DNA of 64,000 nucleotides from Candidatus Eiseniibacteriota bacterium (GTDB lineage: Bacteria; Eisenbacteria; RBG-16-71-46; CAZEPH01): contig JBGATO010000006.1 in assembly GCA_044229145.1 (NCBI GenBank), positions 1-64,000 on the forward strand. Direction: 5' to 3'. This document shows, one piece after another, positions 742 through 28,678 of this stretch. Under the pieces are notes generated by a model that made no database searches, was not told the DNA's origin, and saw only the letters and a program-made list of their open reading frames with translations. How positions within the stretch are numbered: the first letter of the stretch is position 1; every line of letters starts with the position of its first letter. The translations under genes were made by a program, and so were the position numbers.

Positions 742-893
742 GGTACGCGATGGTCGCGGCGGCGCGGGCGGAGTGCAAGCGGATTCCCTGCCGCACCTGC
801 GACGTCCCTCCACGCTGCGCGCGAAACGGTGTATCGTCGCCGGCACGATTCGGCGCGCACGGGCGCGCCGCCGCATCGCGCCAGGAGCCCCGC

Positions 894-2285
894 ATGTCCG
901 AACGCCCCGCCGAGTACGCCGCGCGCGACACCTCACGCCAGTTCGTCGAGGCGGTCAGCGGCCTCTTTGAATGTCTGGGCCGCGCCATCGTGTGCCTGGA
1001 TCGCGACTTCCGGGTCGTGCATGCCAGCGATGGCCTCGACGGATTCGCCACCCCGGGCACCAGCGAGGCCATCGTCGGTCGCGACGCCGCGAGCCTCTTC
1101 GGCGCCGACCTCTTCGGCGAGCAAGGCCGGATGCGCCGTGCACTGAGCGCCGGCGAACGGCGTGAGGGATGGGGCGCCACGCTGACACTCGACGGCGTGC
1201 CGGGTCGACTGTTGTCGATGAGCGCCGCCCCGGTCGGCGGCATCGATTCGCCGCTGTGCGATCCGCGTGTGGCGTACCTGTTGGTCGTCCGCGATGGCAG
1301 CGATCCCGGGATCGCCGAAACATCGCCGCTCACCTTCTTCGCCGGCATGGTGGGGCAGTCGCCGGCGATGCTCCGCGTCTTCCACTTGGTACAGAGCCTG
1401 AGCGAGAGCGACGCTTCCGTTCTCTTGTCGGGCGAAAGCGGGACCGGGAAGGAGCTAGTCGCGCGGGCGCTTCATCTCACGTCGCCGCGGCGCGCCGGCG
1501 CGTTCGTCGCGGTCAACTGCAGCGCGCTGCCGGGCGAGTTGTTCGAATCGGAAGTGTTCGGTCACGTGCGCGGCGCGTTTACGGGCGCGGTGCGGGATCG
1601 CGTCGGCCGGTTCGCCATGGCGCAGGGCGGCACGCTGTTCCTCGACGAAGTTGGCGAGTTGTCGGTGTCCCTCCAGGTCAAATTGTTGCGCGTGCTGCAG
1701 GAGCGCACCTACGAACGCGTCGGGGACAGCCATTCGCTGACCACCGACGCGCGCATCATCGCCGCCACCAACCGCGATCTGCCGCGCGAGGTGAAGGAAG
1801 GTCGGTTCCGCGAGGATCTCTACTACCGGCTCCGCGTGGTGCCGATCGATCTGCCGCCGCTCCGCCATCGCCGGGAGGATGTCGAGCCGTTGGCGCGGCA
1901 CCTCCTGGCACGGGTGGCGGGCCGTCAAGGACGGGCGGTACTGCTGGCACCGGATGCGGTTCGGGCGTTGCTCGCGTACGCCTGGCCGGGGAACGTGCGT
2001 GAATTAGAGAATGCGCTGGAGTACGCCGTGGCGGTGAGTCGCGGACAGACGCTCCACGCCACGGATTTGCCGGAGGAGATCCGGACCGTTCGCCCGGCCC
2101 TCGGTGCCGTGACGCCGGACGCGCCGCCGCCGCTGCCGACTCCTGCCGACGATCCGGGTGAACGCGAACGGCTCCGCAACGCGCTGGAGGCCCACCGGTG
2201 GAACCGGGCGGCTGCCGCGAAGGCTCTCGGGGTGAGCCGCACCACACTCTGGCGACGTGTCCGCGAGCTCGGTCTCGACGACTAG
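894..2285 (+). CDS. Sigma-54-dependent enhancer-binding transcriptional activator (PAS-like N-terminus, AAA+, Fis HTH)
   Basis: GESGTGKE Walker [35 protein letters not shown]-terminal [26 protein letters not shown] before ATG 894. Confidence 0.93.
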
Positions 2286-2298
2286 CCGCGAGTCATTT

Positions 2299-2338
2299 TG
2301 TTTCAAGTGAAACATAGTGTTGCACCGTTATGTTTCAC
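2299..2338. promoter_or_regulatory. Candidate upstream activator sequence for the adjacent sigma-54 activator
   Basis: Palindrome TGTTTCA-AG-TGAAACA (2299-2314), inverted repeat GTGAAACATA-N12-TATGTTTCAC (2307-2338), and TGTTKCA at 2299, 2318 and 2331, in an AT-rich gap about 90-125 bp upstream of the expected transcription start. Confidence 0.65.
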
Positions 2339-2398
2339 GCACGAACCCTCAATCTCCATGCAATACGATAAAGCGTTGTCAATAATATAGATCGCTCG

Positions 2399-2414
2399 TG
2401 GCACGTGGGCTGCA
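2399..2414 (+). promoter_or_regulatory. Sigma-54 (-24/-12) promoter of the psr operon
   Basis: TGGCAC-GTGGG-CTGCA with GG (2400-2401) N10 GC (2412-2413), upstream of GGAGGAG RBS and ATG 2439, and downstream of a bEBP gene. Confidence 0.85.
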
Positions 2415-2438
2415 ATCTCCCCGCGCGGGAGGAGCTCC

Positions 2439-4634
2439 ATGACCACTCTTTCGCGGCGGCGGTTTCTACAGGTGTTCGGCGGCGGTGTCGGGCTGGCCGC
2501 CGGGGCAGCGGGCTTGCCGAAGTGGACGACCGCCCTGGCAGGCGACCGCGAGGCGGCCGGCGACATCCGCCGCATCCCCACCTACTGCGACATCTGCTTC
2601 TGGAAGTGCAACGCCATCGCCACGACGCGCGGCGGACGCCTGTGGAAGATCGAAGGCAACCCGCACGATCCGCTGTCGGGCGGCCGGCTGTGCCCGCGCG
2701 GCACCGGTGGGGTCGGCGCCCATTTCGATACCCAGCGCCTGACCTCGCCGCTGATCCGTCGCGCCGACCGCGGCGAAGAGCGATGGGTCGCGGTGACCTG
2801 GGACGAAGCGCTGCACCACATCGCCACCAAAATGCAGGCGATCAAGGCGCAGTACGGCCCCGAAGCGATGGCGCTGTTCAGTCACGGCATCGGCGGCAAC
2901 TTCCTCAAGCACACGATGAAGGCGTACGGCACGCCGAATCTGGCCGCGCCGTCGTACGCGCAGTGTCGCGGTCCGCGCGACGTCGGCTTCGAGCTCACCT
3001 TTGGCGAACCGGTGGGATCGCCCGAGCGCACGGACATCCGCAATGCCCGCTGCCTGACACTGATCGGCTCGCACCTCGGCGAGAACATGCACAACTCCCA
3101 GGTGCAGGAGTTTGCCGACGCGGTGGGCAGCGGCGCATCACTCATCGTCGTCGACCCGCGCCTGTCGGTGGCCGCGAGCAAGGCAACGCACTATCTGCCG
3201 ATCAAGCCGGGCACTGACGTCGCGCTGCTTCTCGCGTGGATGCAGGTCCTGGTCAGCGAACAGCTCTACGACCGCGCCTACGTCGACGCCCACGGCTTCG
3301 GCTTCGACGCGTTCGCGGCGGAGGTCGCGCCGTACACGCCTGAGTGGGCCTATCCAATCACCGGCATCGCCCCCGACATGATTCGCGAGACCGCGCGCGA
3401 GATGGCGCGTCATCGCCCCGCGTCTCTCGTACATCCCGGCCGCCACGCTACGTGGTACGGCGACGACACGCAGCGCAGCCGCGCAATCGCGCTGCTCAAC
3501 GCCCTGCTCGGCACGTGGGGGCGCAAGGGTGGCTTCTACCAACCGGCCAACATGGACGTGCCGGCGTATCCCTACCCGCCGTACCCGACGTCGACGCGTG
3601 GGCGCGCCGACAATCCGGGCCACCGCTTCGCATTCGGCGCGGAGACGATCACCACTGGCCTGCGTCACGCCACCCTCACCGGGGAGCCGTATCCGATCAA
3701 GGGCTGGATGGTCTACGCCACGAATCTTCTGCAAGCGATGCCGAACCAAGCGGAGACGATTCGGGCGATCCAGAACCTCGATCTGCTCGTCGTCATCGAC
3801 GTCGTGCCGAGCGAAATCGCCGGCTGGGCCGATGTCGTGCTCCCCGAGGCCGTGTATCTCGAACGTTACGACGACCTCAACGTCGAAACCTTCCGCGAGC
3901 CGTTCGTCGCGCTGCGCCAGCCCGTCGTCGAGCCGCCGGCGCAGCAGAAGCCGAACTGGTGGATCGCGCGGCAGCTCGCGCACGAACTCGGCCTCGGCGC
4001 CTTCTACCCGTGGAAGTCGATCGAGGAGTACCTCGACACGCGGTTGCGCGGTGCCGGGCTGTCGCTCGAGACCCTCAAGCAGACGGGCATCGTGCGCGGG
4101 CCGCAGCCACCGGTTTACTTCGAGGACGGCGTGACGCCGGAGTTCCCGACGCCGAGCGGCAAGATCGAGTTCTACTCGACGCAATTGCGCGACGCCGGCT
4201 TCGACCCGGTGCCGCGCTACACGGCGCACGAGGAGCCGCCCGCCGGCAGCTTCCGCTTGCTGTTCGGCCGCGCGCCGATGCACTCGTTCGGCCGCACGCA
4301 GACGAATCCGCTGCTGCGCGACGTCATGGACGAGAACGAGGTGTGGATCAATGAGGATGCCGCGCGACGCCTGGGCCTTCCCGACGGCGCATACGTCCGC
4401 CTGCGCAATCAGGACGGCGTGGTGAGCAACCGCGTGCGTGTCAAGGCCACCCAGCGCATCCGCGGCGACTGCGTCTACATGGTGCACGGATTCGGCCACA
4501 CCGCCCGCGGCATGCGCCCGGAATCGAAGAAGGGCGCGAGCGATTCGGGTCTCGTCACGCGCTACACCACCGACCCGCTGATGGGCGGCAACGGCATGAG
4601 CGTCAACTTCGTGACGCTCGATGTGGAGGCATAG
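2439..4634 (+). CDS. psrA: Polysulfide/thiosulfate reductase catalytic subunit (PsrA/PhsA-type molybdopterin oxidoreductase, Tat-exported)
   Basis: Tat motif SRRRFL; [4Fe-4S] motif CDICFWKC...LCPRG; likely Mo-ligand segment APSYAQCRGPR; C-terminal molybdopterin dinucleotide-binding domain; followed by B and NrfD subunits. Confidence 0.85.
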   Translation: MTTLSRRRFLQVFGGGVGLAAGAAGLPKWTTALAGDREAAGDIRRIPTYCDICFWKCNAIATTRGGRLWKIEGNPHDPLSGGRLCPRGTGGVGAHFDTQRLTSPLIRRADRGEERWVAVTWDEALHHIATKMQAIKAQYGPEAMALFSHGIGGNFLKHTMKAYGTPNLAAPSYAQCRGPRDVGFELTFGEPVGSPERTDIRNARCLTLIGSHLGENMHNSQVQEFADAVGSGASLIVVDPRLSVAASKATHYLPIKPGTDVALLLAWMQVLVSEQLYDRAYVDAHGFGFDAFAAEVAPYTPEWAYPITGIAPDMIRETAREMARHRPASLVHPGRHATWYGDDTQRSRAIALLNALLGTWGRKGGFYQPANMDVPAYPYPPYPTSTRGRADNPGHRFAFGAETITTGLRHATLTGEPYPIKGWMVYATNLLQAMPNQAETIRAIQNLDLLVVIDVVPSEIAGWADVVLPEAVYLERYDDLNVETFREPFVALRQPVVEPPAQQKPNWWIARQLAHELGLGAFYPWKSIEEYLDTRLRGAGLSLETLKQTGIVRGPQPPVYFEDGVTPEFPTPSGKIEFYSTQLRDAGFDPVPRYTAHEEPPAGSFRLLFGRAPMHSFGRTQTNPLLRDVMDENEVWINEDAARRLGLPDGAYVRLRNQDGVVSNRVRVKATQRIRGDCVYMVHGFGHTARGMRPESKKGASDSGLVTRYTTDPLMGGNGMSVNFVTLDVEA

Positions 4635-4637
4635 GCG

Positions 4638-5177
4638 ATGGCGCGTTTCGGCATGGTGATCGATACGCGACGCTGCGTGGGATGCACCGACTGCGTCGTC
4701 GCGTGCAAGACGGAGAACGATGTTCCCGATGGTTTCTGTCGCGACTGGATCGTCACGGAGGCCGCCGGCACCTTCCCGGACACCCGGCTCGAGATTCGCA
4801 GCGAGCGCTGCAACCACTGCGACTCGCCGCCGTGCGTCAGCTGCTGCCCGACTGGCGCCAGCCACGTGGAAGAGTACGGCCACGTCGTGCTGGTGACGCA
4901 CGATGCGTGCATCGGCTGCAAGGCGTGCCTCGCGTCATGTCCGTACGACGCGCGCTTCATCCACCCCAAGGGCTACGCCGACAAGTGCACGTTCTGCCTG
5001 CACCGTGTGAAGGACGGCCTCGACCCAGCCTGCGTCGCGGTGTGCCCAACACACTGCATGCATTTCGGCGATCTCGACGACCCGCACAGCGAGGTGAGCC
5101 AATTGCTCGCGTCGCGCCCGCACCACGCGCTGCTGCCGGACGCCGGCACCGGTCCGCGCGTGTTCTACCTCACGTAG
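4638..5177 (+). CDS. psrB: Four-cluster Fe-S electron transfer subunit (PsrB/NrfC type)
   Basis: CVGCTDCVVAC, CNHCDSPPCVSCC, CIGCKACLASC, KCTFC...PACVAVC. Confidence 0.92.
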   Translation: MARFGMVIDTRRCVGCTDCVVACKTENDVPDGFCRDWIVTEAAGTFPDTRLEIRSERCNHCDSPPCVSCCPTGASHVEEYGHVVLVTHDACIGCKACLASCPYDARFIHPKGYADKCTFCLHRVKDGLDPACVAVCPTHCMHFGDLDDPHSEVSQLLASRPHHALLPDAGTGPRVFYLT

Positions 5178-5187
5178 GGAGAGGCTC

Positions 5188-6126
5188 ATGTTCGAACTCA
5201 CGACGACACGCGCCAATCACCTCGTCGATCCGGTGGTGCATGTGTGGGCGTGGCAGATTCCGGTCTATCTATTCCTTGGCGGGTTGGTGGCCGGGATGAT
5301 GATCGTACAGGGCTGGTTCCTGCTCGATCCGCGGCGTCGCACGCGCCAGTCGGTGACCTACGCGCTGCCGATCCTCAGCCTCGGGCTGCTGAGCGCAGGG
5401 ATGGGAGCGCTCTTTCTCGACCTCGAACACAAGGCGTACGTGTGGCGGCTGTATACGACGTTCCGGCCCAGTTCGCCGATGTCGTGGGGCGCGTGGATTC
5501 TGATCGGCGTGTACCCGGTGCTCCTGGCGGCGATGGCACTCCGCATGCCGCACCTGGTGGCGCCGGTGCTGCCGGCGCTGCGACGCCTCGGTGACCGCTG
5601 GAACGGGGACGAGGCGGTCGTGCGGCGTATCGCGTTCGCCTGCATCGGACTCGGCGGGGCACTCGGGATCTACACCGGAATCTTGCTCAGCGCATTGAGT
5701 GCGCGCCCGGCGTGGAACAGCGCCGTGCTCGGACCGCTGTTCTTGGCCTCGGGACTATCGAGCGCGGCCGCGCTCGTCCATCTGCTCGCCGCCGACGCCG
5801 ACGAGCGCGAGACGCTGACGCGCGCCGATGCGCGCTTCGTCCTCGGTGAACTCGTGGTGCTGGCGCTCTACTTCATTGGCCTGGCGAGCGCGGCACGTGC
5901 GCAGGCCGAGGCGGCGCGCCTGTTCTTCGGGGGGCCGTTCACCGCGGTGTTCTGGGTGGGCGTGGTGGGATGCGGTCTCGTGCTGCCGCTCACACTGCAC
6001 GCACTCACGGTGACGCGGCGCATGCACCACACGGTGGTCGCGCCACTGTTGGTGCTGGCAGGCGGCCTTCTGCTGCGCGTGGTGATCGTTCAAGCGGGCC
6101 AGATCAGTCACTGGCCTCGCGTGTGA
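5188..6126 (+). CDS. psrC: NrfD/PsrC-type quinol-interacting membrane anchor
   Basis: WAWQIPVYLFLGGL, LFLDLEH, SPMSWGAW, YTGILLS...RPAWN; multiple TM helices. Confidence 0.9.
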   Translation: MFELTTTRANHLVDPVVHVWAWQIPVYLFLGGLVAGMMIVQGWFLLDPRRRTRQSVTYALPILSLGLLSAGMGALFLDLEHKAYVWRLYTTFRPSSPMSWGAWILIGVYPVLLAAMALRMPHLVAPVLPALRRLGDRWNGDEAVVRRIAFACIGLGGALGIYTGILLSALSARPAWNSAVLGPLFLASGLSSAAALVHLLAADADERETLTRADARFVLGELVVLALYFIGLASAARAQAEAARLFFGGPFTAVFWVGVVGCGLVLPLTLHALTVTRRMHHTVVAPLLVLAGGLLLRVVIVQAGQISHWPRV

Positions 6127-6145
6127 GAAGTCGGAGGATCGTTCG

Positions 6146-6745
6146 ATGAGCACTCTGTCTCCCGCCGCGCTCACGGCACCGCCGTCGCACGCCGCGACAC
6201 GCGATCGCGCGGACGCACAGGCGACGCTGCGCACCGCTGCGCCCTACATGAATCCGTATCTCGCGGGGATCGGACTCGGCGCGGTCCTGCTCGCCGCCTA
6301 CGTGACGATGGGCCGCGGCCTTGGCGCGTCGGGCGCCATCGGCTCGCTGGTGTCGTGGGCGCTCGGGGGCGTCGCTCCGGAGCACGCGCGCACCAATGAG
6401 TTCTTCCGCGGCTACCTCGAAGACGGCGTCGGGCATCCGCTCAAAGCGTGGCTGGTGTTCGAGGTGCTCGGCGTGATCGCCGGCGGGTTCCTCTCGGGCG
6501 CCCTCGCCGGACGGCTGGCGCGCGTGGTCGAGAAGGGGCCGCGGATCTCGGTGACCGGCCGGCTCGCGTTTGCCTTCGCCGGCGGCGCGCTCATGGGAAT
6601 CGGCGCCAAGCTCGCGCGCGGCTGCACCAGCGGCCAGGCGCTCAGTGGCGGCGCCACGCTCAACGCGGGCTCGTGGGCTTTCATGATGATGGTATTCGCC
6701 GGCGCGTATCTGCTCGCCGGCGTGATGCGGAGGGAATGGCGATGA
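6146..6745 (+). CDS. YeeE/YedE sulfur-transport family membrane protein (half-size, first)
   Basis: NPYLAGIGLG, GLGASG, GGALMGIGAKLARGCTSG. Confidence 0.85.
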   Translation: MSTLSPAALTAPPSHAATRDRADAQATLRTAAPYMNPYLAGIGLGAVLLAAYVTMGRGLGASGAIGSLVSWALGGVAPEHARTNEFFRGYLEDGVGHPLKAWLVFEVLGVIAGGFLSGALAGRLARVVEKGPRISVTGRLAFAFAGGALMGIGAKLARGCTSGQALSGGATLNAGSWAFMMMVFAGAYLLAGVMRREWR

Positions 6746-7341
6746 ACCTGCCACTCTACAAGTTCGGCGCATTCGGCGATGAGGCGTCGCTGCTGGTGGC
6801 ATTCGTGATCGGCGTGGCGTTCGGGTTCTTCCTCGAGCGCGCGGGCTTCGGCAGTGCGAAGAAGCTGGTGTCGCAGTTCTATCTCAACGACCTCGCCGTC
6901 TTCAAGGTCATGTTCACCGCCATCGTCACCGCCATGCTCGGCATCTTCTACCTCGCGTGGATGGGCGTGCTCGATCTGTCGCAGGTCTACCTCACGTCGA
7001 CGTTCCTGTGGCCGCAGATCGTCGGTGGCCTGGTGCTCGGGTTCGGCTTCGTGATCGGCGGCTACTGTCCGGGCACGTCGATGGTGGCGATGGCCACCGG
7101 CCGTATCGACGGCGTGGTCTACGTGCTCGGCGTGATCGCCGGCACGTACGCGGTGGGCGAAGCGTTCCCGCTGCTCAAGTCGTTCTACGAGTCCGGCGCA
7201 CATGGACGATTGACGTTGCCGGAAGTGTTCCATCTGCCGTACGGCGCGGTGGTCTTCCTCGTCGTGCTGATGGCGCTCGGCGGCTTCGCCGGCGCGGAAT
7301 GGGTCGAGCGCCGCATGGCGGCGCGTCACACGGAGCGCTGA
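6742..7341 (+). CDS. YeeE/YedE sulfur-transport family membrane protein (half-size, second)
   Basis: ATGA overlap with the previous stop; GVAFGFFLERAGF, GGLVLGFGFVIGGYCPGT. Confidence 0.85.
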   Translation: MNLPLYKFGAFGDEASLLVAFVIGVAFGFFLERAGFGSAKKLVSQFYLNDLAVFKVMFTAIVTAMLGIFYLAWMGVLDLSQVYLTSTFLWPQIVGGLVLGFGFVIGGYCPGTSMVAMATGRIDGVVYVLGVIAGTYAVGEAFPLLKSFYESGAHGRLTLPEVFHLPYGAVVFLVVLMALGGFAGAEWVERRMAARHTER

Positions 7342-7342
7342 C

Positions 7343-8008
7343 ATGCAGATCGTCTGGACGCGCAATCGCCTCCTGGCTGGTGCCGCCTTCGCGCTCGGTG
7401 TCGTCGCGCTCTTCGGTCGGCCAACGCCAGGGCATACGGTGCGCCTCGACACGCAGGAACTCGCGACCATCGTCGCCGACAAGGTCGATCATGTGAGCGC
7501 GGTCGAACTCGCCGACTGGATCATCCAGAACAAGAGCGACTATCGCCTCGTCGATGTCCGCACGCCGGACGAGTTCGCCGCCTATCACATCCCGACCGCG
7601 GAGAACGTGCCGATCACGCAACTCCCCGACTTCGGACTCGGGCGCACCGAGAAGATCGTGCTGTACTCGGAAGGCGGCATCCACTCGGCGCAGGCGTGGA
7701 TGTTGTTGCGCGCGGAGAAATACGCCGGCGTGTACATCTTGTTCGGCGGTCTCGATGCGTGGAACGACGAGGTGCTGCACCCCGTGGCGCCCGTCGCCGC
7801 GACGCCACAGCAGACGGCGGCGTTCGAACGCGCGGCACAAGTCGCGCGATTCTTCGGTGGCGCGCCGCGCGCGGCCTCCGCACACGACACCACGCTGCTC
7901 GCGCTCGCGCCACCTCCCGTCGCCGCCGCACCCAAAGTTGCTGCTCCGAAATCCCCGGCTGGCACCGCCCCCGCGGCCCCGGCCAAGAAGAAGAAGGAAG
8001 GATGTTGA
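7343..8008 (+). CDS. Membrane-anchored/exported rhodanese-like protein lacking the canonical active-site Cys, with a C-terminal Pro/Ala tail ending KKKKEGC
   Basis: N-terminal hydrophobic helix; LVDVRTPDEFAAYHIPTAENVP and LFGGLDAW rhodanese motifs; active-loop position reads VLYSEGGIHS. Confidence 0.85.
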   Translation: MQIVWTRNRLLAGAAFALGVVALFGRPTPGHTVRLDTQELATIVADKVDHVSAVELADWIIQNKSDYRLVDVRTPDEFAAYHIPTAENVPITQLPDFGLGRTEKIVLYSEGGIHSAQAWMLLRAEKYAGVYILFGGLDAWNDEVLHPVAPVAATPQQTAAFERAAQVARFFGGAPRAASAHDTTLLALAPPPVAAAPKVAAPKSPAGTAPAAPAKKKKEGC

Positions 8009-8049
8009 GCGGCCGCGACGTCCAGGCCGCGTCCCCGGAGGACTCACGC

Positions 8050-9369
8050 ATGCACTCCCATCGACAGCTCTCGCTCGCACTCGCGGCAGGGCTCCTCGCC
8101 GTGGCGTCGATTGCACACGCCACCAATGGTATGTACCTCGCCGCGTACGGTAGTGAGGCGGCGGGACGCGGAGGCGCCAACATCGCCATCGCCGACCGCG
8201 CACTCGGGCTCCAGGCGAATCCGGCTGGCATCGCACAATTGCAGGGACAGCACCTCAGCCTCGACGTACAGATGCTCGCGCCACGGCTGCACTACGGTGG
8301 CGATCCGTTCGGCAACACGCTCGATGCCAAGCACACGATCTTCGGCATGCCGTCGCTGTCGTACGTGCGCGGTGGCAAAGACACACCGTGGACGTGGGGT
8401 TTCGCGCTTCTGAGCCAGGGCGGCATGGGCGCCACATTCGACGGATACCACACGCCGTTCGGCACCACCGACGAGACGTACAGCGAGGTGCGCTTCCTCA
8501 CCGCGACGCCGACGCTCGCCTACTCGGTGAACGAGGACTTGTCCTTCGGCGTGTCCGGCAATGCCGGCTACTCCGACGTCACGTTCCGCTTCTATCCGCA
8601 CACCAGCTTCTATAGCGACGCTGGCACCGCCGAGGATCCGAGCGACGACATGGGCTTCTTTGGGGCCAACGTCTCGTCACGCGCCCGCGCGTTCAACTAC
8701 AGCGGCCGCGCCGGTGCGATGTGGGCGGCGCACCCGCGCGTCCAACTCGGCGCGATCTACCAGACCAAGACGCACGGCGAATACAAGAACGGCACGCTGA
8801 CGCTCAATGAAACCGCATTGGGACTCGGTATGGTCGACTACGACGCCGTCGTCGAAGGCTTCACGTGGCCCGAGCAGTACGGCGCGGGTGTGCAGCTGCG
8901 TCCGGTCGACCGGGTGATCGTCGCCGCCGACGCGCGCCGGTATCTATGGAGCGGGGCGATCCGCACCATCACGGTGCGCGGCTCCAACCCCACGGCGGCC
9001 ACCCCGGTCACCGACCCGGTGATGCCGTTCGTGTTCGACTGGAGTGACGCGTGGGCGTTCAGCGTCGGCGCCGAAGTGCGGGCGACACCGAACCTCACTC
9101 TCCGGGGCGGAGCCAACCTCGGCGACAACCCAGTGCCCGACGCCACCCTCAATCCTCTATTCCCGGCGATCACGACGAGCCATGCCACGCTCGGTGTCGG
9201 CTACACGCATCACGGCAGCACGTGGAATCTCGCGCTCGAACGCGCGTTCGAGGCGACGCAGACGAATCTCAACATCGACCAGAACGTCAATCCGTTCGGG
9301 CCGGGCGCCACGGTGAGCCACGCGCAGTGGACCGTGTCGCTCGGCATCAGCCGCGCGTTCTCGCGCTAG
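8050..9369 (+). CDS. FadL/TodX/OmpP1-family outer-membrane channel
   Basis: Signal peptide, then NGMYLAAYG..AGRGGA...ANPAG (the NPA hatch motif of the FadL family); beta-barrel-like pattern ending in ..ISRAF; GGAG RBS. Confidence 0.82.
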   Translation: MHSHRQLSLALAAGLLAVASIAHATNGMYLAAYGSEAAGRGGANIAIADRALGLQANPAGIAQLQGQHLSLDVQMLAPRLHYGGDPFGNTLDAKHTIFGMPSLSYVRGGKDTPWTWGFALLSQGGMGATFDGYHTPFGTTDETYSEVRFLTATPTLAYSVNEDLSFGVSGNAGYSDVTFRFYPHTSFYSDAGTAEDPSDDMGFFGANVSSRARAFNYSGRAGAMWAAHPRVQLGAIYQTKTHGEYKNGTLTLNETALGLGMVDYDAVVEGFTWPEQYGAGVQLRPVDRVIVAADARRYLWSGAIRTITVRGSNPTAATPVTDPVMPFVFDWSDAWAFSVGAEVRATPNLTLRGGANLGDNPVPDATLNPLFPAITTSHATLGVGYTHHGSTWNLALERAFEATQTNLNIDQNVNPFGPGATVSHAQWTVSLGISRAFSR

Positions 9370-9382
9370 AGTGGGGGACAGC

Positions 9383-9739
9383 ATGCACACCCGTACGCGA
9401 CTGGCCCTCGGGCTCGTCCTCGCCGCGGCCGCCTGCTTCGCGGTCGCCAGCGTCGCCAACGAGCGCATCGCGGCCGACACGCGCAAAGACTGCACGGCGT
9501 GTCACGACAAGCCGGGCAGCAAGCGCCTCACCGACGCCGGCAAGTACTTCGAAACGCAGAAGACGCTCGACGGATTCGACGCGATCCAGACGTCGTTCGG
9601 TCACTGTACGGCGTGCCACGACACCAAGCCAGGGTCGACGAAGCTGACGGCCAAGGGCACGCAGTTCTCGGCGTTCGCCAAGGACATGCCGGCACTCACC
9701 GAGTGGATGAAGGCGAATCACCCATCGCCGGCCAAGTAG
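9383..9739 (+). CDS. Small exported diheme cytochrome c
   Basis: Signal peptide; two CTACH motifs within an internal duplication. Confidence 0.85.
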   Translation: MHTRTRLALGLVLAAAACFAVASVANERIAADTRKDCTACHDKPGSKRLTDAGKYFETQKTLDGFDAIQTSFGHCTACHDTKPGSTKLTAKGTQFSAFAKDMPALTEWMKANHPSPAK

Positions 9740-9802
9740 AGCGCATGCGCGCGCCGGGTTACGCGCTGATGGAACCCGGCGTGGCGTGTCGAGGAGGTGT
9801 TC

Positions 9803-10816
9803 ATGTTTCGCGTTTGTGCGATCGCTGCCCTGTTGGCGGGCGCGCTCACGGTGTCACCGGCCGCCGCTGCTCCCGACGCCGCGCAGCCGGTCTTCGTCTC
9901 ACTGGCCGACTCGCTGCGCGGCACGGTCGACGAACTCGTCGCACCGGTACGCGCGGCGTGCGTGGCACACGGTTTCGAAGTTGTCGCGGTACACGAGGCA
10001 ACGGCGCCCGGCGGCTGTTCGTCCCACGCGCAGGTCTTCGTGCTGCAGCAGCCGCGTTACACACAGCAGGTGTTGGCGCACGGTCCGCGCGCCGCGTTCG
10101 CGGTTCCGGTGCGACTCGTGCTCTTTGACGATGAGGCGGGCGTGCATCTCGCCGCGATCAACCCGCTGTCGCTCGACCGCACGATGGTGGCCGAGTCTGG
10201 ATTCGAGGACCCCGCGGCCACACTTTTGGCGGATCTGCAAGCCGTGGCGCGCGACGCCGGCCACGGCGCGCGCGCGGCGCGTGGCGGCTTCGGCCAGGTG
10301 CGAACGCGCGGCCTCATCGGCCGCACGATGGGCGTGATGGCCGGCGGTCCATTCCTCGACAAAGTGCAGGACGTGACGAGCGAGCCGGGGACCACACAAC
10401 TGGACCTCGCCCGCGTGGCCGATCGTGTGTGGAAAGGCGTCACGATGCACGCGGGACGCGGCCGCTGGCAAATGCGCGGTGCCTACCGTCTCGATCTGGC
10501 GCCGCGCGGCGTGGTGATCATCGGCGTCTCCGGTCCCGCGATGGAGGCGAAGAGCTATGCCATCGTCGGCGCTGGTGGAGATGCGCGCCGCGCGCGGTTC
10601 GCCTGTCCGGGGCTCGCCTACGCCGCGGCGTATCCAATCGAAATCGTCGTGTATCTCGAGGGCGGCCGCGTCCACGTTGCCACCGTCGAGGCGATGTATC
10701 GCATGAAGATGTACTTCGAGGACGCCGGCAAGATGAAGTTCGCCGCCAACATGACGATGCCCGGCTCGATCGCGGATGAATTGCGCGGATTGATTACCGC
10801 GGGTCTCGCGCAGTAG
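9803..10816 (+). CDS. Exported protein with tandem DUF302-like domains
   Basis: GAGGAGG RBS; signal peptide; AAFAVPVRLVLFDDEAGVHLAAINP and AAAYPIEIVVYLEGGRVHV resemble the DUF302 core. Confidence 0.6.
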   Translation: MFRVCAIAALLAGALTVSPAAAAPDAAQPVFVSLADSLRGTVDELVAPVRAACVAHGFEVVAVHEATAPGGCSSHAQVFVLQQPRYTQQVLAHGPRAAFAVPVRLVLFDDEAGVHLAAINPLSLDRTMVAESGFEDPAATLLADLQAVARDAGHGARAARGGFGQVRTRGLIGRTMGVMAGGPFLDKVQDVTSEPGTTQLDLARVADRVWKGVTMHAGRGRWQMRGAYRLDLAPRGVVIIGVSGPAMEAKSYAIVGAGGDARRARFACPGLAYAAAYPIEIVVYLEGGRVHVATVEAMYRMKMYFEDAGKMKFAANMTMPGSIADELRGLITAGLAQ

Positions 10817-10894
10817 GACACACGGCCGCCCTGCCCGCGTGCTAGCATGCGGATAGGGCGCGCCACTGCGGCTCGTCCATCCGGAGAGTCGACC

Positions 10895-11257
10895 ATGATG
10901 CCGCACCTCCCCGGCTCCGCCCCCGACGCAGCGGGCGAGCCATTTGCCGCCGACCTCGTCGCCTACCAGCCCGGCACGGTGGTGAGTCGCACGTTGATCA
11001 AGAAGCCGACCGGCACGGTGACGGTGTTCGCCTTCGACGCGGGCGAAGGGTTGAGCGAACATACGGCGCCGTTCGACGCACTCGTCCTGGCGCTGGATGG
11101 CGAGGCGGAGATTCCGATCGCCGGCGTCATGCATCGCGTGGCGGCGGGGCAATTGCTGCTGCTCCCCGAAGGCAAGCCGCACGCGGTGAAGGCGGTGACG
11201 CCGTTCAAGATGATGCTGATCATGATCCGCGGCGCGGCGGCTCCGACCAGCGGCTAG
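10895..11257 (+). CDS. Cupin-domain protein
   Basis: FAFDAGEGLSEHTAP...LDGEAEI...PHAVKA cupin motifs. Confidence 0.85.
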   Translation: MMPHLPGSAPDAAGEPFAADLVAYQPGTVVSRTLIKKPTGTVTVFAFDAGEGLSEHTAPFDALVLALDGEAEIPIAGVMHRVAAGQLLLLPEGKPHAVKAVTPFKMMLIMIRGAAAPTSG

Positions 11258-11790
11258 ATCTCGCCGTGATACGCGCGCGCTTCGGCCCATGCCCGATGCG
11301 CTGCCACGCGCTTCTCGAGTAGCGCCGCAACGTTGGCCCGCACGCGGTCGCCGTCATACACCGGCGACACCTTGACCGGCGGCACCGCGGCAAGGCGCGT
11401 GGCCACGTCGGCGGCGGCCGACCCGAGCGCGGACTCGCACTCGGCGTAAATACCGCCGGGCCCTTCTTCGAGCGGATTGTGCGCGAGCAGAATGCTCCAG
11501 AGGTGGCCGATCGTCTCGCCGTCCGCCGGGAGAGCCATCAAGCCCGCGAGAGCCGCGTGATCGGTGCGAATCAAATCTTCGAGCGCGAGACGTTCGCCGT
11601 CCCGGCAGCCGCGCGCCGCCGGAAACAACACCTTCTCCTCCATCGCGATGTGATGGAGGAGCGCGGCGCGGAACTCATCGTAGAGCGCGGGATCCGGCGT
11701 ATCGCCGCTGGCCCGCAGGCGCTGCAACAGCGCCCCCAGCGCGTGGTGATCGGCGATCAGCACATCGGTCGCCCGAACGGTCGTGGTCAT
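11254..11790 (-). CDS. Hemerythrin (HHE cation-binding) domain protein
   Basis: DHHAL, HHIAMEEKVLFP, DHAAL, HNPLEE pattern; GGAG RBS before ATG 11790. Confidence 0.8.
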   Translation of the reverse strand: MTTTVRATDVLIADHHALGALLQRLRASGDTPDPALYDEFRAALLHHIAMEEKVLFPAARGCRDGERLALEDLIRTDHAALAGLMALPADGETIGHLWSILLAHNPLEEGPGGIYAECESALGSAAADVATRLAAVPPVKVSPVYDGDRVRANVAALLEKRVAAHRAWAEARAYHGEI

Positions 11791-11810
11791 GAGGGGACTC
11801 CTGTCTCCGG

Positions 11811-12821
11811 CTAGGCGCCGGCTGCGGCCATCTCCGCGGTGCGGTACACGTAGGCGCCGGGTGCGCGTTCGCGGAGGATGCGCGCGGCGTCGGCGTCGGT
11901 CTTGCCGTACACGGTGGTCGCGGCGACGTCCGCGAGCATGCAGCCCGCGGCACGCACCGTCAGGCTGTGCGCGCGCACCAGGCGCGGCGACGCGGTGAAC
12001 GGGTCGAGGATGTGGTGGTAGCGCCGGCCCTCGTAGTCGAAGTAGCGCATGTAGTCGCCCGAGGTCGCGACCGATTCGTCGCTCACCTCGAACTCCGCGA
12101 CCAGTCCGTCCGGATCGGTTGGCGACTGCACGCCGACACGCCACGGCTTCCCTTCCGCGTTGTGCCCCATCGCGTAGAGGTCGCCGCCGATGTTCACGAG
12201 TCCGTTCTCGACGCCGAACGCGCGCAGCGTCTCGACCGCGCGCTCGATGCCGTAGCCCTTGGCGATACCGCCGAGATCGAGCTTGGCGTCGGCGTGCGCG
12301 AAGCGGAGCGCCGGCTCGCCGGCGGCGCGCGTCAGCTCCACCGCGTGGTGCAGGCGACGTCCCGCGAGTGGCTCGTACTGTCCAGCGGTCGGGGGCACGC
12401 GGCGACTCTTCACGTCCCACAGGTCGATGGCCTTGCCAATGGCGGGGTCGTACGAACCGCCGCTCGCCTCCGCCCACGCCAACGCTTCGCGCACCACCGC
12501 GGCGGTTTCGCGCGACACCGGCACTGCGCGCCGCGCGGCGTCCAGATTGGCGCGACCGATGTCGGAGCTGACGGAATAGTTCGTCATCAGACGTTCGACA
12601 CGTCGCAGCTCGTCGTACGCGGCGTCGATCGCGGCCTGCGCGCGCAGCGGGTCGTGGCTCACCACGCCGAGTTCGGCGACGGTGCCCATGACCGGAACGG
12701 TGCGCCGCACCAGACGCACACGGCGCGACGCGAACGGCACGGCCGACACCACGAAGGCGCCCAAGGCGAGCGTGAGGAACTCACGACGGCTCACGCCGTG
12801 CTGCGAACTCGACTGCGTCAT
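11811..12821 (-). CDS. apbE: FAD:protein FMN transferase (flavinylates RnfG/RnfD)
   Basis: VMGT, LDLGGIAKGY, NIGGD, VATSGDY, RYHHILDP; twin-arginine-like SRREFL N-terminus. Confidence 0.93.
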   Translation of the reverse strand: MTQSSSQHGVSRREFLTLALGAFVVSAVPFASRRVRLVRRTVPVMGTVAELGVVSHDPLRAQAAIDAAYDELRRVERLMTNYSVSSDIGRANLDAARRAVPVSRETAAVVREALAWAEASGGSYDPAIGKAIDLWDVKSRRVPPTAGQYEPLAGRRLHHAVELTRAAGEPALRFAHADAKLDLGGIAKGYGIERAVETLRAFGVENGLVNIGGDLYAMGHNAEGKPWRVGVQSPTDPDGLVAEFEVSDESVATSGDYMRYFDYEGRRYHHILDPFTASPRLVRAHSLTVRAAGCMLADVAATTVYGKTDADAARILRERAPGAYVYRTAEMAAAGA

Positions 12822-12994
12822 CTCCGGTCTCCTTTGCCGCCCGCCGGGGCGGTGCCTTCCGACTTGTCACACGATCCGCCGCACGACCCGCATCCGTGGC
12901 CGTCGCACGGCTTGTGGCGATACACGATCACGAACGCGGTGCCCAGCACCGCGCAGATCGCCACCCCGAGCACCCCCTGCAACCATCCGGTCAT
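12818..12994 (-). CDS. 58-aa single-TM Cys-rich small protein (NqrM-like or FeoB-associated Cys-rich type)
   Basis: Manual translation MTGWLQGVLGVAICAVLGTAFVIVYRHKPCDGHGCGSCGGSCDKSEGTAPAGGKGDRR*; fills the rnfA-apbE gap, with its TGA overlapping the apbE ATG. Confidence 0.8.
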   Translation of the reverse strand: MTGWLQGVLGVAICAVLGTAFVIVYRHKPCDGHGCGSCGGSCDKSEGTAPAGGKGDRR

Positions 12995-12998
12995 CTGC

Positions 12999-17323: not shown

Positions 17324-17324
17324 G

Positions 17325-22364: not shown

Positions 22365-22401
22365 GACCACACTCCGTTTCTGGGCTTGCGGCGCTTCGGA
22401 A

Positions 22402-23268: not shown

Positions 23269-23271
23269 GGC

Positions 23272-25285: not shown

Positions 25286-25298
25286 GCGCGACTCCTTC

Positions 25299-28593: not shown

Positions 28594-28678
28594 TCTCAGG
28601 TTCTCCGTCGCGGACACCGAGTCCGGTCTCTCCGGCCGCGCGCCAGCACGGCAGAGATGTGCGAGGGGTACGCGGCGA

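What the first reader, a model, noticed from the sequence alone, without database searches (positions are those of the whole stretch)
2439..11257. Extended Psr/Phs operon that appears to encode an envelope-spanning sulfur delivery pathway
Seen: psrABC followed, with gaps under 80 nt or overlaps, by two YeeE halves, a rhodanese, a FadL-type channel, a diheme cytochrome c, a tandem DUF302-like protein and a cupin. Known: YeeE/TsuA moves thiosulfate-type sulfur via conserved Cys; rhodaneses such as Wolinella Sud deliver polysulfide to Psr; FadL channels pass hydrophobic solutes across the outer membrane. Inference: a dedicated route for taking up hydrophobic S0/polysulfide (or Se analogues) and delivering it to the periplasmic Mo enzyme. 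I do not recognise this ten-gene combination as a characterised system.
Basis: partly seen in the sequence, partly recalled or inferred. Interest (0 to 1): 0.82.

Follow-up and report, generated by a model that had tools for sequence, protein, structure and literature searches.

The report
Psr reductase operon with cysteine-tailed sulfur carrier
This is a real ten-gene operon whose first six genes, a polysulfide-reductase-type molybdenum enzyme, a two-piece cysteine-lined membrane sulfur channel and an inactive rhodanese-like protein ending in one invariant cysteine on a flexible tail, form a widespread and apparently uncharacterised module.

Summary
Ten co-directional genes (2439-11257) lie behind a sigma-54 activator gene and a -24/-12 promoter-like site.

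PsrA matches the Thermus thermophilus PsrA structure (723 bits). Its best family model is PhsA, below that model's cut-off.

- psrABC, two YeeE halves and the rhodanese-like gene form an invariant block: 57 of 57 testable genome loci from at least six phyla. In metagenome contigs found through the rhodanese-like protein, each upstream gene was present wherever the contig reached.
- FadL is next to the block in about a quarter of loci.
- The dihaem cytochrome and tandem DUF302 recur only in closer relatives.
- The cupin recurs nowhere.

New points:
- The "rhodanese" lacks the catalytic cysteine.
- Its only invariant cysteine is the last residue (KKKKEGC), after a disordered linker.
- In a sister clade it is fused to the second YeeE half and keeps the terminal cysteine.

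My best reading (confidence about 0.45) is a quinol-driven periplasmic reductase of zero-valent sulfur, served by a cysteine relay and a swinging carrier arm. The substrate is not shown. Published Melioribacter roseus data (arsenate induction, no growth on sulfur) argue against simple sulfur respiration. I rate it a new variant of a known kind.

The parts
750..2285 (+). Sigma-54-dependent activator (enhancer-binding protein) with a weak PAS match at its N-terminus.
   Evidence: Pfam Sigma54_activat 1.8e-68, AAA_lid_14, HTH_8. Orthologues with more than 50% identity lie upstream on the same strand in 15 loci.
2399..2414 (+). Sigma-54 -24/-12 promoter-like element TGGCACGTGGGCTGCA, 25 nt before the psrA ATG.
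   Evidence: It is the only match in the window with one mismatch or fewer; sequence. Similar elements follow the activator gene in 11 of 15 related loci.
2439..4634 (+). psrA: twin-arginine-exported Mo-bisPGD catalytic subunit of the PsrA/PhsA/SrrA lineage.
   Evidence: 2vpw_A, 723 bits over residues 5-728. 283 relatives in species genomes; the best 80 are 64-79% identical.
4638..5177 (+). psrB: four-cluster Fe-S electron-transfer subunit without its own signal peptide.
   Evidence: Fer4_11 1e-22. NrfC, ArrB, DsrO and TtrB models score 154-176 bits, all below their cut-offs.
5188..6126 (+). psrC: NrfD-type quinol-oxidising membrane anchor with eight predicted helices.
   Evidence: NrfD 1.8e-42; hydropathy scan.
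6146..6745 (+). E1: YeeE/YedE half that matches the C-terminal half of full-length YeeE (PmpA/YedE1 type). Invariant Cys160 sits in the motif GCTSG.
   Evidence: Sulf_transp profile 168-310. Cys160 is present in 66 of 66 orthologues; alignment A2.
6736..7341 (+). E2: YeeE/YedE half that matches the N-terminal half (PmpB/YedE2 type). Invariant Cys111 sits in the motif GGYCPGT. Its predicted C-terminus is cytoplasmic.
   Evidence: Sulf_transp profile 1-156. Cys111 is present in 62 of 62 orthologues; A3; hydropathy.
7343..8008 (+). R*: membrane-anchored periplasmic rhodanese-fold protein. The catalytic Cys is replaced (YSEGGIHS). It ends in a disordered linker of about 45 residues and the motif KKKKEGC-COOH.
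   Evidence: Cys221 in 59 of 59; 119 of 120 homologues end in Cys. Fused to E2 in a sister clade.
8050..9369 (+). FadL/TodX-family outer-membrane channel with a signal peptide. The start is uncertain (8002 or 8050).
   Evidence: Toluene_X 2.4e-26. Orthologues of 52-73% identity lie next to R* or E2 in L064, L100, L124, G088, G090 and G089.
9371..9739 (+). Small periplasmic dihaem cytochrome c, an internal duplication of the motif C-x-x-CHD-x-KPGS.
   Evidence: Two CXXCH motifs. Orthologues of 46-64% identity lie directly after FadL in L100, L124, G088, G090 and G089.
9797..10816 (+). Secreted tandem DUF302-fold protein with one invariant Cys in each repeat (Cys74, Cys270).
   Evidence: DUF302 1.1e-5; A5. 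Model pLDDT 69.8, pTM 0.73. Foldseek hits 1j3m and 1q9u, probability 1.00. 60% identical orthologue in G089 and 42-43% in L039 and L057 by alignment.
10847..11257 (+). Cupin with no signal peptide. It is the last gene of the co-directional block and is not conserved elsewhere.
   Evidence: Cupin_2 2.1e-7. No tblastn match in any fetched locus.

Best explanation
This is a sigma-54-controlled operon for a periplasmic, quinol-dependent Mo-bisPGD reductase of the Psr/Phs type. The enzyme works together with a dedicated cysteine relay for zero-valent (sulfane) sulfur.

Proposed mechanism:
1. PsrC takes electrons from menaquinol, PsrB passes them on, and PsrA reduces sulfane sulfur to sulfide.
2. 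The two YeeE halves (E1 and E2, one invariant Cys each) form a YedE1E2/PmpAB-type channel in the inner membrane.
3. R* is anchored beside that channel. Its rhodanese-fold domain lies in the periplasm and is catalytically dead.
4. The single cysteine at the very end of R*'s long polybasic tail carries sulfur as a persulfide or polysulfide. It swings between the channel mouth and the PsrA active-site funnel, in the manner of the SoxY arm.
5. In this organism FadL admits hydrophobic S8 or organic polysulfanes through the outer membrane. The secreted two-Cys DUF302 protein and the dihaem cytochrome are periplasmic helpers whose roles are unknown.

Shown here: gene content, order, conservation, the invariant cysteines, the dead rhodanese loop, the tail, the E2-R* fusion and the promoter motif.

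Inferred: the substrate, the carrier role of the tail, the direction of sulfur flow and the role of FadL.
For: Enzyme type:
- PsrA matches the T. thermophilus PsrA structure at 723 bits over residues 5-728. The Cys in SYAQCRGPRD aligns to a Cys in that chain.
- PhsA is the best NCBIfam model. A twin-arginine leader is present.

Obligatory linkage:
- All six core genes are in the same order in 57 of 57 genome loci that reach far enough.
- In loci found through R*: E2 in 43 of 43, E1 in 36 of 36, psrB and psrC in 19 of 19, and psrA in 12 of 12.
- In the window's own phylum R* occurs in 17 of 206 genomes. A PsrA of at least 63% identity was found in 15 of those 17. In the other two the contig ends in psrA or psrC.

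Cysteine relay:
- E1 Cys160 is invariant in 66 of 66, E2 Cys111 in 62 of 62, and R* terminal Cys221 in 59 of 59. No other R* cysteine is conserved.
- 119 of 120 stand-alone database homologues end in Cys, and 108 of 120 have exactly one Cys.

Fusion:
- In clade-II loci (PsrA 54-57% identical) E2 and R* are one protein ending in GGC. 119 of the 120 best-scoring fused homologues end in Cys.
- In the fusions, the loop before the R* anchor helix carries 5-7 Lys/Arg, which places the rhodanese domain in the periplasm.

Structure and complex:
- The R* model has pLDDT 87, and its tail (175-221) has no secondary structure.
- Complex prediction for E1+E2+R* gave weak support: score 0.47 against a best control of 0.20. 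The mark was reached by 116 of 157 solved complexes and 2 of 215 mismatched pairs, but at 0.60 or under by only 18 of those 157 and by both mismatches that passed. Runs agree in at least 86% of contacts, and the partner's pLDDT is at least 69.

Sulfane-sulfur theme:
- Split YedE1E2 pairs import zero-valent sulfur and need their Cys residues (PMC10812762, passages read).
- Passing sulfur from the SoxY Cys into YeeE-like SoxT has been proposed (PMC11582611, passages read).
- Neighbours in other loci include a beta-lactamase-fold/rhodanese fusion, a disulfide-reductase-like/rhodanese fusion and ArsR-like/rhodanese fusions. I assigned these from N-terminal sequence only. AhpD-like CMD proteins also occur.
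- In Gemmatirosa the E1-E2-R* trio sits beside a SufS-like cysteine desulfurase.

FadL:
- It is adjacent in 21 loci across phyla.
- It lies behind the sigma-54 promoter-like site in L039, L053 and L057.
- A FadL protein was proposed to carry hydrophobic sulfur chains in Chlorobaculum (10.1101/172254, passage read).
Against: - No activity data exist for any member of this module.
- M. roseus has a MerR-psrABC locus of the same layout as the Melioribacter MAG loci here. Its own sequence was not examined. It did not grow with S0 or thiosulfate, and its psr/phsA transcript rose with arsenate (PMC3534657, PMC5492636, passages read).
- Substrate cannot be read from sequence in the PsrA/PhsA/SrrA lineage (PMC7331816, PMC13047784, passages read).
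- FadL is missing from about three quarters of loci, and the cupin from all others.
- G089 has phsAB, a cytochrome b subunit, E1-E2, FadL, the cytochrome and DUF302 but no R*. R* is therefore not indispensable to every variant.
- Gemmatirosa has the E1-E2-R* trio with no psr genes within 9 kb.
- The complex prediction is only weak and gave no interface. No test of R* against PsrA was run.
- Many hosts belong to lineages known mostly as aerobic or facultative heterotrophs (recalled, not tested). That fits detoxification or homeostasis as well as it fits respiration.
Confidence: 0.45

Rival explanations
1. It is a respiratory or detoxifying reductase for a selenium or arsenic species (Srr-like selenite reductase, or an arsenate or thioarsenate reductase). 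The YedE-type halves and the cysteine tail would then handle selenium or arsenic rather than sulfur.
For: - SrrA belongs to the same lineage, and rhodanese-like neighbours are regarded as a mark of selenite reducers (PMC8528874, PMC7331816, passages read).
- The best NCBIfam match of E2 is a YedE selenium-transporter model, though weak (42 bits against a cut-off of 200).
- The M. roseus psr/phsA transcript is induced by arsenate, and its authors proposed it as the arsenate reductase (PMC5492636, passages read).
- A MerR-type regulator precedes psrA in 34 loci.
Against: - The ArrA model scores only 131 bits against 495 for PhsA.
- Ttr-like enzymes are now favoured as the non-Arr arsenate reductases (PMC13608581, passages read).
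- Arsenate reduction in that group's work is scored by orpiment formation, so sulfide was present. My inference is that sulfane sulfur or thioarsenate could be the real inducer.
- Neighbouring genes in other loci point to persulfide chemistry.
- No SrrA sequence was available for direct comparison.
Confidence: 0.2
2. It is a thiosulfate (or tetrathionate) reductase. The YeeE pair moves thiosulfate or the sulfite product across the inner membrane, and the R* cysteine binds a thiosulfonate as SoxY does.
For: - The best family model is PhsA.
- The Protein Data Bank names the closest structure 'thiosulfate reductase'.
- Full-length YeeE/TsuA is a thiosulfate importer (PMC11582611, PMC13047784, passages read).
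- The G089 variant has a PhsC-like cytochrome b subunit (FdnI model 1.2e-20).
Against: - The PhsA score is below the equivalog cut-off (495 against 694).
- Split YedE1E2 pairs took up zero-valent sulfur, whereas the full-length form did not in the same assay (PMC10812762, passages read).
- A FadL channel is not needed for a hydrophilic anion.
- M. roseus did not use thiosulfate (PMC3534657, passages read).
Confidence: 0.15
3. The module runs the other way or serves homeostasis. Either sulfide is oxidised at PsrA to sulfane sulfur that R* and E1E2 import for cytoplasmic use or oxidation, or cytoplasmic persulfide is exported to R* and disposed of as sulfide.
For: - The inner-membrane channel is the invariant companion.
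- YedE1E2 acts as an importer (PMC10812762, passages read).
- The Gemmatirosa trio lies next to a persulfide-forming SufS-like enzyme.
- Many hosts are not known sulfur respirers (recalled, not tested).
Against: - Characterised members of this lineage are reductases (PMC7331816, Table 1 read).
- No cytoplasmic acceptor such as TusA, DsrE or a persulfide dioxygenase is encoded in this operon.
- The window's genome carries Rnf and pyruvate:ferredoxin oxidoreductase-like genes typical of anaerobic metabolism.
Confidence: 0.1

Closest known systems
Thermus thermophilus PsrABC (PDB 2vpw-2vpz)
   Same: Three-subunit architecture: twin-arginine-exported Mo-bisPGD subunit, four-cluster protein and NrfD anchor. 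PsrA aligns end to end at 723 bits, and a Cys aligns at the SYAQCRGPRD site.
   Different: Whether the Thermus operon has YeeE halves or an R*-like gene could not be checked here. That this Cys is the Mo ligand is recalled from the literature, not tested.
Wolinella succinogenes Psr with the Sud polysulfide-sulfur transferase
   Same: A periplasmic rhodanese-fold protein accompanies a polysulfide reductase. The Sud structure 1qxn is a weak hit of R* (E 1.5e-4).
   Different: Sud carries sulfur on the Cys of its rhodanese active-site loop (recalled). R* has Ser at that position, is membrane-anchored, and keeps only a C-terminal Cys. No YeeE pair is known to accompany Sud (recalled).
YedE1E2 / PmpAB split YeeE transporters
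   Same: Two adjacent half-size Sulf_transp genes, each with one invariant Cys at the positions of TsuA Cys91 and Cys293 (PMC11582611 and PMC10812762, passages read).
   Different: The halves here are about 200 aa, against about 130-140 aa. The Pfam DUF6691 match is weak and below its cut-off. They are tied to psrABC and to R*, and in a sister clade E2 is fused to R*.
SoxYZ carrier arm feeding SoxT (proposed)
   Same: A cysteine at or near the C-terminus of a flexible arm in a periplasmic protein is thought to hand sulfur to a Cys-lined YeeE-type channel (PMC11582611, passages read).
   Different: R* has a rhodanese fold, not a SoxY fold, so this is analogy and not homology. Its tail is polybasic and ends in EGC. 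The partner enzyme is a Mo reductase, not the Sox enzymes.
SrrABC selenite reductase operon of Bacillus selenitireducens
   Same: Same PsrA/PhsA/SrrA lineage, with rhodanese-like genes in the operon (PMC8528874 and PMC7331816, passages read).
   Different: That host is Gram-positive. The Srr gene content is recalled only, and no YeeE pair or FadL is recalled for it.
Desulfurivibrio dismutans psr operon with a periplasmic rhodanese lipoprotein
   Same: A psr operon that includes a secreted rhodanese protein. YeeE and a porin are discussed as parts of a sulfur route (PMC12142623, passages read).
   Different: There the sulfurtransferase has three rhodanese domains, and the YeeE and porin genes lie elsewhere in the genome. 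No C-terminal cysteine tail is described.

Membership tests
PsrA/PhsA/SrrA lineage of Mo-bisPGD (DMSO reductase family) catalytic subunits | Scores best against Psr/Phs members rather than other DMSO reductase family lineages. | tested here: met
   PhsA model 495 bits against 248 (Fdh-alpha), 131 (ArrA) and 50 (TtrA). PDB best is T. thermophilus PsrA at 723 bits, next 209.
PsrA/PhsA/SrrA lineage of Mo-bisPGD (DMSO reductase family) catalytic subunits | Twin-arginine leader, N-terminal Fe4S4 cysteine motif and a Cys ligand to Mo. | tested here: met
   RRRFLQ leader and the YCDICFWKC...C motif. Molybdop_Fe4S4 5.3e-8. A Cys aligns with a Cys of 2vpw_A. That this Cys is the Mo ligand is recalled.
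PsrA/PhsA/SrrA lineage of Mo-bisPGD (DMSO reductase family) catalytic subunits | Placement inside the clade in a tree with characterised PsrA, PhsA, SrrA and SreA references. | not tested
   No named reference sequences could be obtained. HMM and pairwise scores stand in for the tree.
Thiosulfate reductase PhsA (NCBIfam NF012032 equivalog) | Score at or above the curated cut-off of 694 bits. | tested here: not met
   495.1 bits, and 423.5 bits in the genome search. It is not filed as PhsA.
NrfD/PsrC quinol-oxidising membrane subunit | NrfD profile above its cut-off and about eight transmembrane helices. | tested here: met
   146.5 bits against a cut-off of 25.8. Eight hydrophobic segments.
Split YeeE/YedE transporter (PmpAB / YedE1E2 type) | Two adjacent genes matching the two halves of Sulf_transp, each with one conserved Cys. 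| tested here: met
   Profile 168-310 and 1-156. Cys160 in 66 of 66 and Cys111 in 62 of 62.
Split YeeE/YedE transporter (PmpAB / YedE1E2 type) | Transport of zero-valent sulfur. | not testable with these tools
   Known only for the Cupriavidus and Sinorhizobium pairs (PMC10812762, passages read).
Catalytically active rhodanese sulfurtransferase (including Sud) | Rhodanese fold. | tested here: met
   PF00581 1.1e-17. Model pLDDT 87 with alternating strands and helices across residues 37-145.
Catalytically active rhodanese sulfurtransferase (including Sud) | Catalytic Cys in the active-site loop after the central strand. | tested here: not met
   Ser stands where 6mxv has Cys. No Cys occupies that column in 32 aligned orthologues. 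The only invariant Cys is the last residue.
SoxY-type swinging-arm sulfur carrier | Cysteine on a flexible C-terminal arm of a periplasmic protein. | tested here: met
   Terminal Cys in 59 of 59 orthologues and 119 of 120 database homologues. The tail is unstructured. Periplasmic side follows from the positive-inside rule.
SoxY-type swinging-arm sulfur carrier | SoxY fold and sequence family. | tested here: not met
   Only the Rhodanese family was found. The resemblance is functional analogy only.
FadL/TodX outer-membrane channel | Toluene_X profile above its cut-off and a signal peptide. | tested here: met
   92.6 bits against a cut-off of 29.7. N-terminal hydrophobic segment 7-25. Hatch and lateral opening were not examined.
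DUF302 (TT1751-like) | DUF302 profile and fold. | tested here: met
   25.7 bits against a cut-off of 23. Foldseek 1j3m and 1q9u, probability 1.00, target TM-score 0.69-0.78. A second repeat is inferred from the repeated strand-helix pattern.
SrrABC respiratory selenite reductase system | Closer to SrrA than to PsrA or PhsA, and selenite reductase activity. | not tested
   No SrrA sequence or model was at hand. Only the shared lineage and rhodanese neighbours are known (PMC8528874, passages read).

The most novel reading that the evidence does not exclude
R* is a dedicated substrate-carrier protein. PsrA would then be the first DMSO reductase family enzyme that acts on a protein-bound persulfide or polysulfide. 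The sulfur sits on a C-terminal cysteine arm, and that arm is loaded by a Cys-lined split-YeeE channel which extracts S8 dissolved in, or passing through, the inner membrane. Together with FadL this would make a trans-envelope cysteine bucket brigade for elemental sulfur, present in many soil, sediment and sludge heterotrophs not regarded as sulfur reducers.
Probability: 0.25. Interest if true: 0.8.

Novelty: new variant of a known kind. Interest (0 to 1): 0.62.

Why it matters
How insoluble elemental sulfur reaches polysulfide reductases is a long-standing gap in the field. So is what YeeE-family proteins do on the periplasmic side.

This module offers a concrete and genetically compact test case:
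- one invariant terminal cysteine to mutate;
- a natural E2-R* fusion that argues for physical coupling;
- cultured carriers named in the record titles (Rosettibacter primus, Gemmatirosa kalamazoonensis for the trio), plus probably Melioribacter roseus.

The module is common. PsrA had 283 relatives among species genomes. R* and the fused form each have about 2,000 or more database clusters. It occurs in Ignavibacteriota, Acidobacteriota, Gemmatimonadota, Bacteroidota, Gammaproteobacteria and Eisenbacteria.

Assigning its substrate would therefore change how psrA/phsA hits are read in metagenomic sulfur, selenium and arsenic budgets. It could also re-interpret the arsenate-induced Psr/Phs enzyme of M. 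roseus.

Tried and rejected
- My first three home-made gene callers mis-split genes in high-GC loci. I replaced them with clustering of all ORFs in the flanks. One cluster (number 5) still merged spurious high-GC ORFs with the true DUF302 orthologues. I picked the true set by hand: 8 loci besides the window.
- The ORF after the cytochrome in L124 is not DUF302-like (hhalign probability 0.1).
- NCBIfam subtyping of the MerR regulator gave only matches to the HTH part, with HspR best at 58-64 bits and below its cut-off. It says nothing about the inducer.
- The conserved 350-aa membrane protein of the Ignavibacteria loci (cluster 11) matched no Pfam or NCBIfam family.
- I looked for a handle to T. 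thermophilus to inspect its psr neighbourhood. It appears only as an unnamed control, so this was left open.
- A blastn search of plasmids found one record only, Gemmatirosa. It carries no annotation.
- Earlier findings of this scan: nothing for this place.
- Rfam found only one tRNA in the window and nothing in the operon.
- Literature searches for a prior description of psrABC with a YeeE pair and a cysteine-tailed rhodanese returned none. Only open-access papers and preprints were searched. Supplements, including Supplementary Figure S3 of PMC5492636, were not read.

Full report
**What is there**

The window is contig C14 of a metagenome-assembled genome: 4.23 Mb, 164 contigs, 89% complete, about 68% GC. 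Between 2439 and 11257 ten genes lie on the + strand. The gaps between them are 3, 10, 19, an overlap of 10, 1, about 41, 1, 57 and 30 nt. Each has the high third-position GC of real genes in this DNA.

Pfam and NCBIfam identify them as:
- a twin-arginine-exported Mo-bisPGD subunit;
- a four-cluster ferredoxin;
- an NrfD membrane anchor;
- two halves of a YeeE/YedE sulfur-transport protein (the first matches profile positions 168-310, the second 1-156);
- a rhodanese-fold protein;
- a FadL/TodX channel;
- a 122-residue protein with two CXXCH motifs;
- a DUF302 protein;
- a cupin.

A model of the DUF302 protein (pLDDT 69.8, pTM 0.73) matches the DUF302 structures 1j3m and 1q9u (probability 1.00). 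It shows the same strand-helix pattern twice, so "tandem DUF302" holds.

**Regulation**

A sigma-54 activator gene (750-2285) lies directly upstream. The sequence TGGCACGTGGGCTGCA at 2399-2414, 25 nt before the psrA start, is the only match in the window to the -24/-12 consensus with one mismatch or fewer. The total number of matches at two mismatches or fewer was no more than chance: 24 found, 24.2 expected.

In 15 related loci the orthologous activator lies upstream on the same strand. In 11 of these a GG/GC-anchored match with two mismatches or fewer lies within 400 nt after it. I ran no shuffle control for that count. In L039, L053 and L057 the element precedes FadL, which is followed by DUF302 and psrA. 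There FadL and DUF302 appear to belong to the same transcription unit as psr. No terminator-like site lies on the + strand inside the block.

**The enzyme**

PsrA matches the solved T. thermophilus enzyme (2vpw_A, named "thiosulfate reductase" in the data bank) at 723 bits over residues 5-728. The next hit is acetylene hydratase at 209 bits, and ArrA scores 131. The best NCBIfam model is PhsA at 495 bits, below its cut-off of 694. Fdh-alpha scores 248, ArrA 131 and TtrA 50.

The subunit therefore lies in the PsrA/PhsA/SrrA lineage but is not a PhsA equivalog. I could not build a tree with named references. Published work states that substrate (polysulfide, thiosulfate or selenite) cannot be read from sequence in this lineage (PMC7331816, PMC13047784; passages read).

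**The conserved core**

A scan of one genome per species found 283 relatives of PsrA. The best 80 are 64-79% identical. By their record titles they come from Ignavibacteriota/Melioribacteraceae, Acidobacteriota (Vicinamibacteria, Thermoanaerobaculia), Gemmatimonadota, Bacteroidota, Gammaproteobacteria (Steroidobacteraceae), an Alphaproteobacteria MAG and Eisenbacteria.

In all 57 of the 57 loci that extend at least 5.7 kb from the psrA start, the order is psrA-psrB-psrC-E1-E2-R*. I then searched in the opposite direction. A metagenome scan with an alignment of R* gave 409 relatives, of which 80 were kept. Wherever the contig reached far enough:
- E2 was directly upstream in 43 of 43;
- E1 was present in 36 of 36;
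- psrB and psrC in 19 of 19;
- psrA in 12 of 12.

In the window's own phylum (206 species genomes) R* occurs in 17, including this one. A PsrA of at least 63% identity was found in 15 of those 17. In the other two (G088, G090) the contig ends inside psrC or psrA. The distribution is patchy: R* is absent from the one other genome of the same genus (70% complete) and from the other genome of the same family.

**The rhodanese-like protein is not a normal rhodanese**

Where active rhodaneses have the catalytic Cys, R* has Ser (YSEGGIHS, aligned to a Cys-containing loop of 6mxv). No orthologue has a Cys in that column. The only invariant Cys is the last residue: 59 of 59 orthologues end in a Lys/Arg-rich stretch followed by EGC.

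Among the 120 best database homologues, 119 end in Cys and 108 contain exactly one Cys. The only names sources give them are "rhodanese-related sulfurtransferase" or "hypothetical protein".

The model (pLDDT 87) shows an N-terminal helix (7-25), the rhodanese domain, one further helix, and no secondary structure from about 175 to 221. The anchor helix is itself conserved: L18, G19 and P27 are nearly invariant.

**A natural fusion**

In genomes of the same phylum whose PsrA is 54-57% identical (G019, G042, G016) the cluster is psrABC-E1-E2 again. In G019 and G042 I read the frames and found E2 continuing into an anchor helix, a rhodanese-like domain, a linker and a basic tail. The tail ends in Cys in G042 and in Cys-Ser in G019. 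In G016 only the tblastn matches were seen.

This fused form is a large family: 2,424 proteins at E of 1e-10 or better among the 8,000 candidates scored. Of the 120 best, 119 end in Cys and one has Cys as the penultimate residue.

In two fused proteins the loop before the anchor helix carries 5-7 Lys/Arg, and the domain after it is net acidic. The C-terminal loop of stand-alone E2 is basic. By the positive-inside rule the rhodanese domain and tail face the periplasm.

A complex prediction for E1+E2+R* gave only weak support: score 0.47 against a best control of 0.20. The mark was reached by 116 of 157 solved complexes and 2 of 215 mismatched pairs, but at 0.60 or under by only 18 of the 157 and by both mismatches that passed. 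Runs agree in at least 86% of contacts, the partner's pLDDT is at least 69, and no interface was reported. The fusion is the stronger argument that R* works at the YeeE pair.

**The cysteines of the channel**

E1 has one invariant Cys (Cys160, GCTSG; 66 of 66). E2 has one (Cys111, GGYCPGT; 62 of 62). Published alignments place the single Cys of PmpB-type and PmpA-type halves at TsuA Cys91 and Cys293. The first of the three cysteines of full-length YeeE is absent from split forms (PMC11582611, passages read).

Split YedE1E2 pairs from Cupriavidus and Sinorhizobium sped up uptake of zero-valent sulfur into E. coli and needed both cysteines. The full-length form did not do this in the same assay (PMC10812762, passages read). 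The same Communications Biology paper considers that sulfur might pass from the SoxY cysteine into the Cys-lined SoxT channel. R* with its terminal Cys is a plausible counterpart of that arm.

**Variable accessory genes**

A FadL-family gene lies within 1.5 kb after R* in 14 of 50 testable genome loci (Ignavibacteria, L049, L064). It ends within 1.3 kb before psrA in 7 of 63 (Vicinamibacteria, Eisenbacteria).

The FadL-dihaem cytochrome pair of the window recurs as follows:
- L100 and L124: FadL 52-55%, cytochrome 46-53% identical;
- G088 and G090: FadL 67%, cytochrome 56-64% identical.

The full set of FadL (73%), cytochrome (58%) and DUF302 (60%) recurs in G089. There it follows E1 (73%) and E2 (68%) behind a different Mo enzyme: PsrA 51% identical, best model again PhsA, with an FdnI/PhsC-like cytochrome b in place of NrfD. 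That cluster has no R*.

True DUF302 orthologues lie next to FadL in eight genome loci. They keep two invariant cysteines, one per repeat. The cupin was found nowhere else.

Other recurrent neighbours (counts of loci with at least one member, out of 81 including the window):
- a MerR-type regulator directly before psrA: 34;
- MobA: 26;
- a multihaem cytochrome: 25;
- AhpD-like CMD proteins: 14;
- further rhodanese-containing proteins: 16.

Judged from their N-terminal sequences only, that last group includes a beta-lactamase-fold/rhodanese fusion, a disulfide-reductase-like/rhodanese fusion and ArsR-like/rhodanese fusions.

On a megaplasmid of the cultured Gemmatirosa kalamazoonensis, E1 (53%), E2 (58%) and an R* (44%, tail RRRGC) occur with no psr genes within 9 kb. 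They are followed at once by a SufS-family cysteine-desulfurase-like gene and an ArsR regulator. The trio is therefore a module in its own right, and here it is coupled to a persulfide-forming enzyme.

**What the literature says about function**

For M. roseus, a MerR gene (MROS_1773) followed by psrABC (MROS_1774-1776) is described. The organism did not use S0, thiosulfate or sulfite but did use arsenate (PMC3534657, passages read). The psr/phsA transcript rose strongly with arsenate, and the authors proposed it as the arsenate reductase (PMC5492636, passages read).

The Melioribacter MAG loci and the cultured Rosettibacter primus locus here have exactly MerR-A-B-C-E1-E2-R*. I therefore regard MROS_1774 as a probable member, but I did not see its sequence. 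Later work from overlapping authors favours Ttr-like enzymes as non-Arr arsenate reductases and scores arsenate reduction by orpiment, which needs sulfide (PMC13608581, passages read). That sulfane sulfur or thioarsenate formed in such media is the real inducer is my inference.

The idea of a psr operon with a secreted rhodanese, plus YeeE and a porin elsewhere in the genome, is already in print for Desulfurivibrio dismutans (PMC12142623, passages read). A FadL protein has been proposed to carry hydrophobic sulfur chains in Chlorobaculum (10.1101/172254, passage read). None of my seven literature searches returned a description of this six-gene module or of the cysteine-tailed dead rhodanese. 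Only open-access papers and preprints were searched, and no supplements were read.

**Verdict**

It is wrong or incomplete in several details:
- the rhodanese is not Sud-like;
- the invariant partners are the inner-membrane channel and the tailed carrier, not FadL;
- the cupin is incidental;
- the substrate is open.

I commit, at about 0.45, to a quinol-driven periplasmic reductase of zero-valent sulfur fed by a cysteine relay with a swinging terminal-cysteine arm. The rivals are a selenium or arsenic substrate (0.2), thiosulfate or tetrathionate (0.15) and a reverse or homeostatic direction (0.1). I rate it a new variant of a known kind, common in environmental heterotrophs and directly testable.

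Noticed in passing
window 11254-27221, - strand: A gene array convergent with the operon: a hemerythrin-domain ORF, ApbE, Rnf subunits (A/E, D, C and a B-like subunit), a 1681-residue fusion resembling pyruvate:ferredoxin oxidoreductase with extra ferredoxin domains, and a second 2-oxoacid:ferredoxin oxidoreductase pair. This suggests an anaerobic, ferredoxin-based energy metabolism.
   Followed up: partly
window 27250-30397, - strand: Two tandem CitMHS/ArsB-superfamily transporter genes of 495 and 490 residues.
   Followed up: no
window 48209-52459: My third-position-GC filter passed no gene between 48979 and 53486, although a 1384-residue ORF (48209-52363, +) lies there. A tRNA lies at 52388-52459 on the - strand.
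   Followed up: no
L012, L013, L066, L069-L077, L082 (Ignavibacteria loci), downstream of FadL on the opposite strand: A conserved polytopic membrane protein of about 350 residues (motif ITALWAFSESAFGGILHAL) with no Pfam or NCBIfam family. It is always next to an AhpD-like CMD gene and a small rhodanese. A related N-terminal domain is fused to an NTPase-like part in L037, L054 and L063.
   Followed up: partly
L181 (Gemmatirosa kalamazoonensis plasmid 1), 8378-11985: The E1-E2-R* trio occurs without psr genes and is followed by a SufS-like cysteine desulfurase and an ArsR regulator. The carrier module may therefore serve enzymes other than Psr.
   Followed up: partly
L184 (G149), 326-4503: A more distant PsrA (39% identical) has a YeeE pair (32% identical) upstream instead of downstream. 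The Psr-YeeE link may be older than the clade studied here.
   Followed up: no
G000 contig C5, 2345-3400: The genome holds a second Mo-bisPGD enzyme: a 1018-residue open frame, 30% identical to PsrA over residues 4-365.
   Followed up: no
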